A DNA stretch of 64,000 bases, taken from the NCBI RefSeq assembly GCF_009914755.1, contig NC_060945.1; one strand, 5' to 3'. Source of the DNA: the human T2T-CHM13v2.0 reference genome, Homo sapiens. Below, in pieces: positions 15,995-18,900 of the stretch. The notes under the pieces are model-generated. The model searched no databases. It saw nothing but the letters and a program-made list of their open reading frames with translations, and was not told where the DNA came from. A program made the translations under genes and the position numbers. Numbering within the stretch: the first letter of the stretch is position 1; each line of letters begins with the position of its first letter.

Positions 15995-18900
15995 CTGCAT
16001 AAAAAAGAATCACACAAGAGTATGCTTATCAACTTAACCTTTAGAATGAAAAGAATGCTTCTATTAGCATGATTTAAGATTAAGCAGTCTTCTTGGTATA
16101 ATTATGTACTGCATATAAAACACTACAGCACAGAGTTTGCTAGCTCCCTTGTTAGAAATTCAATTGTAAACTTTCAGCGCATGAGAAAGTTTACTGCTTT
16201 TATGGATAACCGCAATAAAATCCACAGAGATTAGTGAACATTCCAAGACATGCACTTCAATAACTCAAAAAGCTGAAAGTGAAAATATGTGCATGCATCA
16301 CTGGTGTAAGTCGGTCAGTTTGGCACCTGATTTGCTATTTATATATGAGATGTGTCTTGCCAACCATCTCTGTCCCAATTTCCTTGTGGTTTAGGAGCTT
16401 TAGGCCCACCTGCCAGCTTTGCCATTATAATCTAAAGTAGTTGATACATAAGTATATACAAAGTTTAACACTGAAATTTTCTAAAACCTGTAAATGAGAA
16501 TCATTCAAGCAGCCAGGAATTTTCATAAACAAAAATCTAAGTTCCCAACTTAAAAAAAAAAGCGCCACAAACCTCACCTTACTTTATCTAAAATAAATAG
16601 GTTTTAGCTTTTTTTTTTTTTTTCTTTTTGAGACGGAGTCTTGCTCTGTTGCCCAGGCTAGAGAGTGCAGTGGCGCGATCTTGGCTCAATGCAACCTCTG
16701 CCTCCTGGGTTCAAGCAATTCTCCTGCCTCAGCCTCCTGAGTAACTGGGATTACAGGTGCCCATCACCATGCCCGGCTAAGTTTTTACTTTTAGTAGAGA
16801 CGGGGTTTCACCACGTTGGCCAGGCTGGTCTCAAACTCCTGCATGATCCACCCGCCTCAGCCTCCCAAAGTGTTGGGATTATAGGTGTGAGCCACTGCGC
16901 TCGGCTGGAAAACATCTTAATTACCATCTGCAAACCTGAACTGGGCAGTGGCTCATGCCTGTAATCCTAGCACTTTGGGAGGCCAAGGTTTGAGGCCAGG
17001 AGTTTGAGACCAGCCTGGGCAACAAAGTGAGACCTAGTCTACAAAAACTAAAAATATATATATATATAAAATATATATATAACATTTGATAATATATATA
17101 TGATATATGTATCATATATACGATACATATATCATACATATATCATATATAATATATATCATACATATATGTATGATATATATATCATGTATATGTATGA
17201 TATGAGATATATATGATATATATGAGATATGTATGATATATACATATGTATGATATATACATATGATATGTGTGATATATACATATCAGATATATATGAT
17301 ATATATCTCAGCCAACCATGACAGCACCTGCCTACAGTCCCAGCTATTCGGGATGTTAAGGCAGAAGAATCACTGGAACTCAGGATTTTGAGGCTGTGGT
17401 GAGCTGATTATGATTGTGCCACTGTCCTCCAGCCTGGGTGATAGAGTAAGACCTTATCACAACAACAACAAAAAAGATACCTAAACCTGAAATTCTCAGA
17501 ATAACATGTTACCAATTGAGAGTAATTTCAGACTGAATTAAAGGCATTAAGCATAATTTTAGAACCTAAGTGCACATTGATTTTAAAAAGTAACTAAAAG
17601 CTGGGTGTGGTGGCTCATGCCTGTAATCCCAGCACTTTGGGAGGCCAAGGCGGACAGATCACGAGGTCAAGAGATCGAGACCATCCTGGCCAACATGGTG
17701 AAACCCCGTCTCTACTAAAAATACAAAAAAAAATTAGGTGGGCATGGTGGCATGCGCCTGTAGTCCCAGCTACTCGGGAGGCTGATGCAGCAGAATTGCT
17801 TGAACCTGGGAGGTGGCGGTTGCAGTAAGCTGAGATCACACCACTGCACTCCAGCCTGGTGACAGAGCAAGACTCCATCTCAAAGAAAAAAAAGAAACAA
17901 ACACTAAAACAAGTAGTTCCCAAACTTTAGTGGGCACCATAATCAAAAGTGCTCATTAAAACAGACTGCTAGGCCTCTTCCAGCATTTCTGATATTGGTG
18001 GGTCTGGAGTGACATCTGAGAATCTGTATTTCTTCTTTTTTTTTTTTTTTGAGATGGAGTCTTGCTCTGTCGCCCAGGCTGGAGTACAGTGGTGCCATCT
18101 CTACTCACTGCAGGCTCCACCTCCCAGGTTCATGCCATGCTCCTGCCTCAGCCTCCCGAGTAGCTGGGACTACAGGCATCTGCCACCACGCCCAGCTAAT
18201 TTTTTGTTTTTTTTAGTAGAGACGGGATTTCACCATGTTAGCCAGGATGGTCTCAACCTCCTGACCTCGTGATCCTCCTGCCTTGGCCTCCCAAAGTGCT
18301 GGGATTACAGGCGTGAGCCACCGCGCCTGGCCTCCAAGAATCTGTATTTCTTATTTATTTTTAGTTTTTTAAAAGATGGAGTGTCACTCTGTCAACCAGG
18401 CTGGAGTGCCATGATGTGATCACAGCTCACTGCAGCCTTCAACTCCTGGGCTCAAGTGATCCTCCCACCTCAGCCTCCTGCGTAGCTGGGACTACAGGTG
18501 TGAGCCACCATACCTGGCTGAGAACTGTCATTCTAACAAGTTCTCAGGTGATGTTGATACTATTTTGGGACCATACTTTGAGAACTAGTGAAATAGACAT
18601 TCCAACAAAGATTAATCCAGTCCGTACTACACTATCCAATGCTTAAAGCTTGATGTGCAATTCCTTTTCTAGAATATATACTATACAAATTTAGGTTCAT
18701 TATACTATACACTATATACACAAACTGGTTAATACAGTTGGATGGGTTCTTTAGATACATACTTCACATAGAGTGCAAAGACTGGGGGAACAGATCAACC
18801 AACAACTTCCCCTACCATAAGATAAAGCAGACTTCCTAGTTTAAAGCCAGAATTCAAACTGCCTTTGTGACCAAGGGTGGTGGTTATTGTCTTGCTTGAA

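What the first reader, a model, noticed from the sequence alone, without database searches (positions are those of the whole stretch)
16327..16440. Hidden paralogous copy of the CCT8 last exon: a candidate alternative C-terminal tail for TRiC/CCT subunit theta
SEEN: on the minus strand in intron 14, about 440 nt upstream of the canonical last acceptor, ctactttag|ATT ATA ATG GCA AAG CTG GCA GGT GGG CCT AAA GCT CCT AAA CCA CAA GGA AAT TGG GAC AGA GAT GGT TGG CAA GAC ACA TCT CAT ATA TAA encodes [30 protein letters not shown]. The canonical exon 15 encodes [25 protein letters not shown]. The alignment has no gaps and the same phase 0 as the exon-14 donor. In the first 13 codons there are 7 synonymous third-position changes and only 2 amino-acid changes, and W19, D20 and D22 are kept. 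That pattern fits an old exon duplication under purifying selection rather than a decayed copy. Use of this exon would give a 553-aa CCT8 with a longer, less acidic tail and an extra Trp. KNOWN: the flexible termini of CCT subunits project into the chaperonin cavity/inter-ring region. INFERENCE: a splice-switched, possibly tissue-specific TRiC variant. The ORF track misses it because it is short. I cannot tell whether gene predictions already contain it.
Basis: partly seen in the sequence, partly recalled or inferred. Interest (0 to 1): 0.92.

Follow-up and report, generated by a model that had tools for sequence, protein, structure and literature searches.

The report
Ancient spare tail exon in CCT8
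An exon missing from the human RefSeq annotation is an ancient duplicate of the last exon of the protein-folding machine subunit CCT8, kept from fish to mammals and spliced in a tissue-dependent way in turkey, and it likely gives human muscle or nerve cells a version of this machine with a different inner tail.

Summary
Window 16431-16327 (minus strand) is a 105-nt exon paralogous to CCT8 exon 15, encoding a 30-residue tail plus its own stop. Orthologous tails occur in 108 of 262 CCT8 records examined, across teleosts, coelacanth, lungfish, amphibians, reptiles, birds and mammals. They sit on the same 523-residue body as the usual tail in 6 of 9 same-species pairs, so the duplication predates the fish-tetrapod split. 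It is a penultimate cassette, not a last exon. A horse model maps the donor to 16327, and turkey RNA-seq plus qPCR show a 98-nt skipped exon, higher in ductus deferens than testis. The stop lies 12 nt before the last junction, so the mRNA would escape NMD. Two RBFOX and one QKI motif follow a weak donor, suggesting muscle or neural inclusion. Human use is not shown: RefSeq lacks the exon, and the human tail has lost a conserved acid (T27, 0 of 75). Non-human gene models already contain the exon. No CCT gene is in the human tandem-duplicated-exon catalogue I searched. Verdict: real, an uncatalogued member of a known kind, function inferred.

The parts
16327..16431 (-). CCT8 cassette exon '14b', 105 nt, paralogue of exon 15
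   Evidence: 5' end from acceptor and homology. 3' end from the horse model's read-through tail: donor position 16327 gives 22 of 24 identity, best of all positions tried in 16200-16339, next best 18. The turkey orthologue is a 98-nt skipped exon.
16339..16431 (-). Coding part: [30 protein letters not shown] plus TAA
   Evidence: orthologues
16432..16460 (-). 3' splice site with a short, interrupted pyrimidine tract (...tatcaactactttag)
   Evidence: Sequence; its weakness is judged by eye, no splice-site scoring was run
16321..16329 (-). 5' splice site CAG|GTGCCA, off-consensus at +4 to +6
16292..16297 (-). TGCATG (RBFOX-type motif) at +30 of the downstream intron
   Evidence: motif identity recalled
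16249..16254 (-). TGCATG (RBFOX-type motif) at +73
   Evidence: two copies in the first 100 nt, reached by 18 of 5000 dinucleotide shuffles; 0 of the 14 other CCT8 donors have one within 100 nt
16230..16235 (-). ACTAAT (QKI-type motif) at +92
   Evidence: motif identity recalled; not tested against shuffles
15768..15994 (-). Canonical exon 15: codes the usual 25-aa tail (15994-15917) and would become 3' UTR when 14b is included; AATAAA at 15791
   Evidence: and the supplied annotation
19981..20100 (-). Exon 14, shared phase-0 donor for both tails

Best explanation
This is a real exon, an ancient tandem duplicate of the last CCT8 exon kept across bony vertebrates, which likely swaps the C-terminal tail of CCT8 in human muscle or nerve cells when it is spliced in between exons 14 and 15. 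Shown: homology, conservation in frame, cassette geometry in horse and turkey, tissue-dependent inclusion in turkey. Inferred: (1) RBFOX and QKI proteins bind the motifs just downstream of the weak donor and promote inclusion, so the default is skipping. (2) The exon's stop lies only 12 nt upstream of the last exon junction, inside the roughly 50-55 nt limit for NMD (established rule, recalled), so the mRNA is stable and exon 15 turns into 3' UTR with the same poly(A) site. (3) The 553-aa subunit assembles into TRiC normally, since residues 1-523 are unchanged. (4) The new tail carries a second tryptophan in a longer acidic stretch (WD[KR]DxW in 63 of 76 distinct tails) and, lying with the other CCT tails on the chamber floor next to the actin/tubulin-binding CCT3/6/8 side, tunes capture or release of clients or cofactors. 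My odds: real exon in vertebrates 0.97; meaningfully included in some human tissue 0.7; muscle or neural, RBFOX/QKI-driven about 0.55; changes client handling about 0.4.
For: Alternative tail in 108 of 262 records (75 distinct sequences; a few records unnamed and judged vertebrate by sequence), spanning eel, carp, cod, coelacanth, lungfish, frogs, caecilian, lizards, snakes, turtle, birds, armadillo, carnivores, whales, rabbit, lemur and macaque. Both tails on an identical 523-aa body in 6 of 9 same-species pairs; the other 3 are models of unequal length. Tree separates the two tail types across species. An unnamed fish-like record reads from exon 14 through a short intron straight into the alternative exon, the same order as in human (P0235). 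The human tail is 28 of 30 identical to macaque and to buffalo/goat. Turkey: skipped exon of 98 nt between the last two exons, dPSI -0.27 testis versus ductus deferens, adjusted P 0.012, validated by qPCR; its primers translate to QIIMAKT, KQQGHW and RDEPDK-stop, matching the peafowl alternative tail (PMC9922982). The chr1 processed pseudogene carries the canonical tail, consistent with skipping in the germ line. Motifs. CCT C-termini contact tubulin and IFT172 in cryo-EM maps (passages of PMC10188570, 10.1101/2022.03.25.483853, 10.64898/2026.03.28.714460). TRiC folds alpha-actin at the Z-disc in zebrafish (PMC9258817). Three quarters of such duplicated-exon isoforms are tissue-specific, particularly nervous and cardiac (PMC9741552 abstract).
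Against: No human transcript or peptide evidence was found. The supplied RefSeq table lists 4 CCT8 transcripts, none with this exon, although human is the most deeply sequenced species. Human T27 occurs in 0 of 75 orthologous tails (E or D in 60), and human has 3 acidic residues in positions 19-30 against 4-7 in all 76 others. No alternative tail among 4 ape, 21 rodent or 11 bat records (weak, because each search lists only 120 hits and clusters hide members). The horse model has lost the stop and has two changes at otherwise near-invariant positions, so lineages can relax. Non-human 'X1' records are automated models; I did not see their read support. Muscle or neural specificity rests on motifs in human only; their conservation could not be checked, and the turkey paper does not attribute inclusion to muscle. 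None of the cryo-EM passages read singles out the CCT8 C-tail; they stress the CCT8 N-terminus and the CCT1, CCT2 and CCT6 tails.
Confidence: 0.6

Rival explanations
1. The exon is functional in most vertebrates but is fading in humans or apes: still intact, rarely included, and of little effect.
For: Absent from the human RefSeq table; human-only T27 and lowest acidity; 0 of 4 ape records carry it while macaque, lemur and loris do; Alu-like repeats begin about 150 nt upstream of the acceptor (supplied mask); precedent of decay in the horse model.
Against: Frame, length, both splice sites, both Trp and the downstream motifs are intact in human; 28 of 30 residues match macaque. The repeats lie only upstream, so they do not flank the exon as an inverted pair (and supplied mask).
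Confidence: 0.25
2. The exon is used, but mainly in a non-muscle, non-neural setting such as reproductive-tract epithelium or maturing sperm, where CCT8 has been linked to sperm-egg binding.
For: The only tissue data found are from turkey ductus deferens, and the authors read it this way.
Against: Inclusion is lower in testis; RBFOX- and QKI-type motifs point to muscle or neurons; the duct wall is muscular (recalled).
Confidence: 0.1
3. It is an alternative last exon with its own polyadenylation site, the usual route for duplicated C-terminal exons.
For: PMC8373072 section 16 names alternative poly(A) usage as the source of C-terminal duplicated-exon swaps. A preprint mentions a hybrid internal/last exon of CCT8 in lymphoblastoid cells, exon not identified in the passages read.
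Against: No AATAAA or ATTAAA between the new stop and exon 15, only CATAAA, AGTAAA and AATAGA variants; horse and turkey both splice onward to the last exon.
Confidence: 0.04
4. Inclusion serves to lower CCT8 levels (a poison-type exon), and the peptide is incidental.
For: It is a stop-containing cassette exon.
Against: The stop is 12 nt from the last junction in human and, by inference from the 98-nt length, about 5 nt in turkey. The peptide is conserved at the amino-acid level from fish to mammals.
Confidence: 0.02

Closest known systems
Tandem duplicated exon substitutions, C-terminal class (77 of 236 human events; PMC8373072, PMC9741552; examples in the table include ABCC9 and TPM1)
   Same: Two homologous adjacent exons give alternative C-termini of one protein; ancient, shared with teleosts; the swapped region is a terminal tail.
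   Different: CCT8 is not in the catalogue (no 'CCT' entry, with TPM1 and GRIA1 found as controls), which covers only GENCODE v33-annotated events. Here the switch is made by a stop-carrying cassette spliced onward to the old last exon, not by alternative poly(A) use or mutually exclusive splicing.
Non-human CCT8 'isoform X1' gene models (553 aa mammals and birds, 551-554 aa lizards and amphibians, 558 aa teleosts)
   Same: These are the orthologous product of this exon.
   Different: They are automated names with no description of homology, tissue or function; no human counterpart in the supplied RefSeq table, and no such chain among the 9 close CCT8 sequences in the PDB.
Turkey CCT8 skipped exon (PMC9922982)
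   Same: Same position between the last two exons, same peptide family, tissue-dependent inclusion.
   Different: The authors report only an extra exon changing the terminal coding part; the passages read do not note the duplication, conservation or a human counterpart.
CCT6A/CCT6B, the testis-specific TRiC subunit swap (recalled, from no call)
   Same: A tissue-specific variant of the otherwise fixed eight-subunit ring.
   Different: CCT6B is a separate gene replacing a whole subunit; here splicing would change only the last 25-30 residues of one subunit, and inclusion is low in turkey testis.
RBFOX/QKI-activated muscle and neural cassette exons (recalled)
   Same: Weak donor with UGCAUG and ACUAAY motifs in the first 100 nt downstream.
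   Different: Binding and regulation are untested for this exon.

Membership tests
Tandem duplicated exon substitution | Two exons of one gene with measurable homology, at least 8 aa | tested here: met
   Gap-free match, 7 synonymous and 2 non-synonymous changes in codons 1-13; score 72 versus background maximum 34
Tandem duplicated exon substitution | Exons occupy the equivalent position in alternative transcripts, one peptide replacing the other | tested here: met
   Both follow exon 14 in phase 0; identical 523-aa body with either tail in 6 of 9 same-species pairs. Met in non-human models; not shown in human.
Tandem duplicated exon substitution | Not a read-through into a neighbouring paralogue or pseudogene | tested here: met
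   The exon lies inside CCT8 intron 14; its DNA has one match in the genome; the only other exon-14 match is a processed copy on chr1
Tandem duplicated exon substitution | Both forms expressed in human (catalogue criterion: annotated as coding in GENCODE) | not testable with these tools
   No human RNA-seq, proteomics, GENCODE or VastDB access; absent from the supplied RefSeq table and from the catalogue
Tandem duplicated exon substitution | C-terminal swaps arise through alternative poly(A) use (as PMC8373072 section 16 describes) | tested here: not met
   Horse and turkey splice onward to the last exon; no canonical poly(A) signal after the new stop. This is a described tendency, not a curation criterion.
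Poison (NMD-coupled) cassette exon | Stop more than about 50-55 nt upstream of the last exon junction | tested here: not met
   Stop ends at 16339, donor at 16327: 12 nt
RBFOX-activated exon | UGCAUG enriched just downstream of the exon | tested here: met
   2 copies at +30 and +73; 18 of 5000 shuffles for 100 nt, 57 for 150 nt, 134 for the whole 332-nt intron; 0 of 14 other donors
RBFOX-activated exon | Motifs conserved across species; binding and knockdown response | not testable with these tools
   No vertebrate genomic DNA other than human, and no CLIP or knockdown data

The most novel reading that the evidence does not exclude
Vertebrates build a muscle- or neuron-specific TRiC by splicing: RBFOX/QKI switch CCT8 to a second, 425-million-year-old tail with an extra tryptophan-acidic motif that adapts the chamber floor to sarcomeric actin or neuronal tubulin. 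Humans still use it though RefSeq misses it, and altered inclusion could be the mechanism behind the cardiomyopathy risk locus labelled CCT8 and could matter in trisomy 21.
Probability: 0.25. Interest if true: 0.85.

Novelty: new member of a known kind. Interest (0 to 1): 0.68.

Why it matters
TRiC folds actin and tubulin and is treated as a fixed machine; all close CCT8 chains in the PDB have the usual tail or are truncated. Cryo-EM shows CCT C-tails touching clients, but their role is inferred from density. A natural, conserved pair of tails on one subunit gives a direct test of what such a tail does: delete 105 nt in zebrafish or swap tails in reconstituted TRiC. If humans use the exon, variants in it are now scored as deep intronic and its peptides are missing from RefSeq-based proteomics searches. 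A shared HCM/DCM GWAS locus (rs62222424) is labelled CCT8 by OpenTargets mapping (PMC9915807). That link is only a lead: by recalled coordinates the SNP lies outside this window, in the neighbouring MAP3K7CL, and a later DCM GWAS does not mention CCT8, MAP3K7CL or the SNP in its main text.

Tried and rejected
1. 'The alternative tail is the ancestral one.' Suggested by a 568-aa PDB chain (yeast, recalled) and by tunicate and fungal tails, but those were picked by likeness to the alternative tail. Among 23 tails from 147 representatives picked by exon 14 alone, 5 scored closer to the human alternative, 16 to the canonical, 2 tied (the set includes a few vertebrate or pseudogene-like rows). Left open; only the two named tunicates favour it. 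The tally printed wrongly included the vertebrate rows and is discarded.
2. 'Less acidic tail' as the conserved change: rejected.
3. Retrocopy evidence of human use: none; the chr1 processed copy has the canonical tail and the exon's DNA has no second match. The chr13 hit (E 1.6) was viewed and treated as chance.
4. Dating beyond bony fish: no shark, ray or lamprey record was among the hits listed (120 listed of 348, 1130 and 2868), so the upper age is unknown.
5. Structure prediction of the macaque 553-aa form (alignment A1) had not finished; no structural claim rests on it.
6. Prior description: ten literature searches found only the turkey event. No CCT8 in the supplements searched of PMC8373072 (1 file, holds the gene table), PMC9741552 (1 short file), PMC6886504 (9 files, 2 not searched), PMC8187152 (4 short files, 1 unreadable) or PMC5740500 (10 files). 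Only PMC8373072 had a positive control. Unseen files, bioRxiv supplements, subscription journals, GENCODE, Ensembl and VastDB may hold the exon.

Full report
Observation. The minus strand at 16431-16339 reads 30 codons and a TAA after an AG acceptor, in phase with the exon-14 donor. Against exon 15 the match is gap-free, with 7 synonymous and 2 non-synonymous changes in codons 1-13, and W19, D20, D22 kept. The spliced product would be 553 aa against 548. The exon-15 peptide scores 72 here and at most 34 in the other stop-free segments of the window (3865 scored). The DNA is single-copy in the genome search.

Conservation. Three protein searches (one listed each, of 348, 1130 and 2868 hits) gave 262 distinct records. 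One search sorted them into 126 alternative-like tails (108 vertebrate, 18 tunicate, fungal or unnamed non-vertebrate-like), 112 canonical and 24 others (truncated, frameshifted or intron read-through). One search was ranked by likeness to the alternative tail, so these counts are not frequencies. The alternative tail occurs in teleosts, coelacanth, lungfish, frogs, caecilian, lizards, snakes, turtle, birds and placental mammals. In cod, two frogs, an anole and two geckos both tails sit on an identical 523-aa body (6 of 9 pairs; the coelacanth, tetra and bear pairs are models of unequal length). Among 75 distinct vertebrate tails W19 and D20 are invariant, K14 is in 73, D22 in 71, W24 in 67. 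In a tree of 33 hand-picked tails, 30 columns, the 13 canonical tails form one side of a branch at 99/98 and the human alternative tail groups with macaque, buffalo and armadillo (short alignment, bootstrap not fully settled). One duplication before the ray-finned/lobe-finned split is the simplest reading, which is at least 425 million years by the dating in the PMC8373072 abstract. No cartilaginous fish or lamprey record was listed. Which copy is ancestral is open (see Tried and rejected).

Geometry. A horse model (P0080) has lost the stop and runs on into exon 15 in another frame. Trying every human donor position from 16200 to 16339, position 16327 (CAG|GTGCCA) reproduces 22 of its last 24 residues; the next best give 18 and are not GT sites. 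In turkey the event is a skipped exon of 98 nt between the last two exons (PMC9922982 supplement 6, one row seen). The long-variant primers translate to pieces of the bird alternative tail. Inclusion is higher in ductus deferens than testis (dPSI -0.27, adjusted P 0.012), confirmed by qPCR. So the exon is a penultimate cassette of 105 nt in human whose stop lies 12 nt before the last junction. By the 50-55 nt rule (recalled) it would escape NMD, and exon 15 would become 3' UTR. No canonical poly(A) signal lies between the new stop and exon 15.

Regulation (inferred). The donor is off-consensus. TGCATG occurs at +30 and +73 and ACTAAT at +92 downstream; two TGCATG in the first 100 nt were reached by 18 of 5000 shuffles (57 for 150 nt, 134 for the whole intron), and none of the 14 other donors has either motif within 100 nt (twelve motif types were looked at, so the shuffle figure is somewhat optimistic). 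Downstream RBFOX and QKI sites usually promote inclusion in muscle and neurons (recalled). Low inclusion in turkey testis and a canonical-tailed human retrocopy fit default skipping.

Function (inferred). Residues 1-523 are unchanged, so only the terminal tail differs. Passages from three cryo-EM papers place CCT C-termini on the chamber floor in contact with tubulin or a WD40 client, and place tubulin on the CCT3/6/8 side; none assigns a role to the CCT8 C-tail. The conserved difference between the tails is length (mostly 30-35 versus about 23-25 residues) and a second Trp: two Trp in 68 of 75 alternative tails, at most one in all 34 canonical tails; WD[KR]DxW in 63 of 76. Net charge is about -1 in both. 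I therefore favour an added aromatic-acidic contact for clients or cofactors. TRiC folds alpha-actin at the Z-disc in zebrafish (PMC9258817 passages), which gives a reason for a muscle form. The fold prediction did not return.

Against. Nothing here shows human use. The supplied RefSeq table lacks the exon. Human T27 is seen in 0 of 75 orthologous tails and the human tail is the least acidic (3 acids in positions 19-30 against 4-7). No alternative tail was seen in 4 ape, 21 rodent or 11 bat records, which is weak because of listing limits and clustering, but a loss in mouse would help explain why it was overlooked. The horse copy looks relaxed. The non-human records are automated models.

What is known. 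The kind is well described: 236 human tandem duplicated exon substitutions, 77 C-terminal, mostly ancient and tissue-specific (PMC8373072 abstract and sections 6 and 16; PMC9741552 passages). CCT8 is not in that table. The orthologous exon is already in many non-human gene models and was seen as a skipping event in turkey without its origin being noted in the passages read. A preprint mentions a different-sounding CCT8 hybrid exon that truncates the protein (passages only). Ten searches of the held library found no description of the human exon or of a second CCT8 tail; GENCODE, Ensembl, VastDB, subscription journals and several supplement files were out of reach.

Papers seen: PMC9922982 passages, section 23, supplement 2 whole, supplement search rows; PMC8373072 abstract, sections 6 and 16, supplement search; PMC9741552 passages and supplement search; PMC6886504, PMC8187152 and PMC5740500 supplement searches only; PMC10188570, 10.1101/2022.03.25.483853, 10.64898/2026.03.28.714460, 10.1101/2021.05.27.446076, PMC9915807 and PMC9258817 passages; PMC11631752 a term search with no hits.

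Verdict. A real, ancient, coding duplicate exon that works as a stop-carrying cassette to swap the CCT8 tail. It is a new member of a known kind, with a less usual switch. Interest 0.68: it would surprise TRiC specialists and gives a clean test of tail function, but the exon is already modelled in other species and human use is unproven (my odds 0.7).

Noticed in passing
window 26995 (- strand, donor after exon 26995-27144): The donor of CCT8 exon 4 reads GAG|GCAAGT, a GC-AG intron.
   Followed up: no
L005:1501-1700 (G000:C1:147604946 onward): Processed CCT8 copy on chr1: exon 14 joined directly to the canonical tail, 82% identical over exon 14.
   Followed up: partly
window 16581-18523: Cluster of Alu-like repeats in both orientations in intron 14, starting about 150 nt upstream of the new exon; 13 inverted pairs of 60 nt or more. 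They could affect inclusion in primates.
   Followed up: partly
P0080 (horse): The horse model of the exon lacks the stop and reads into exon 15 in another frame, with two changes at near-invariant positions; possible lineage-specific decay or a modelling error.
   Followed up: partly
P0110, P0384, P0393, P0398 (lizards): In these lizards the canonical tail has lost its single Trp (L or M instead) while the alternative tail, where seen, keeps two.
   Followed up: no
P0123-P0196 (teleosts, coelacanth): Fish alternative tails carry a further short extension, mostly F-D/E-T-H-H-like, absent in tetrapods.
   Followed up: no
outside the window, rs62222424: A locus shared by hypertrophic and dilated cardiomyopathy GWAS, with opposite effects, is labelled CCT8 (PMC9915807); the causal gene is not established.
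   Followed up: partly
rodent, bat and ape records: 0 of 21 rodent, 0 of 11 bat and 0 of 4 ape records carry the alternative tail; possible losses, or an effect of listing limits.
   Followed up: partly
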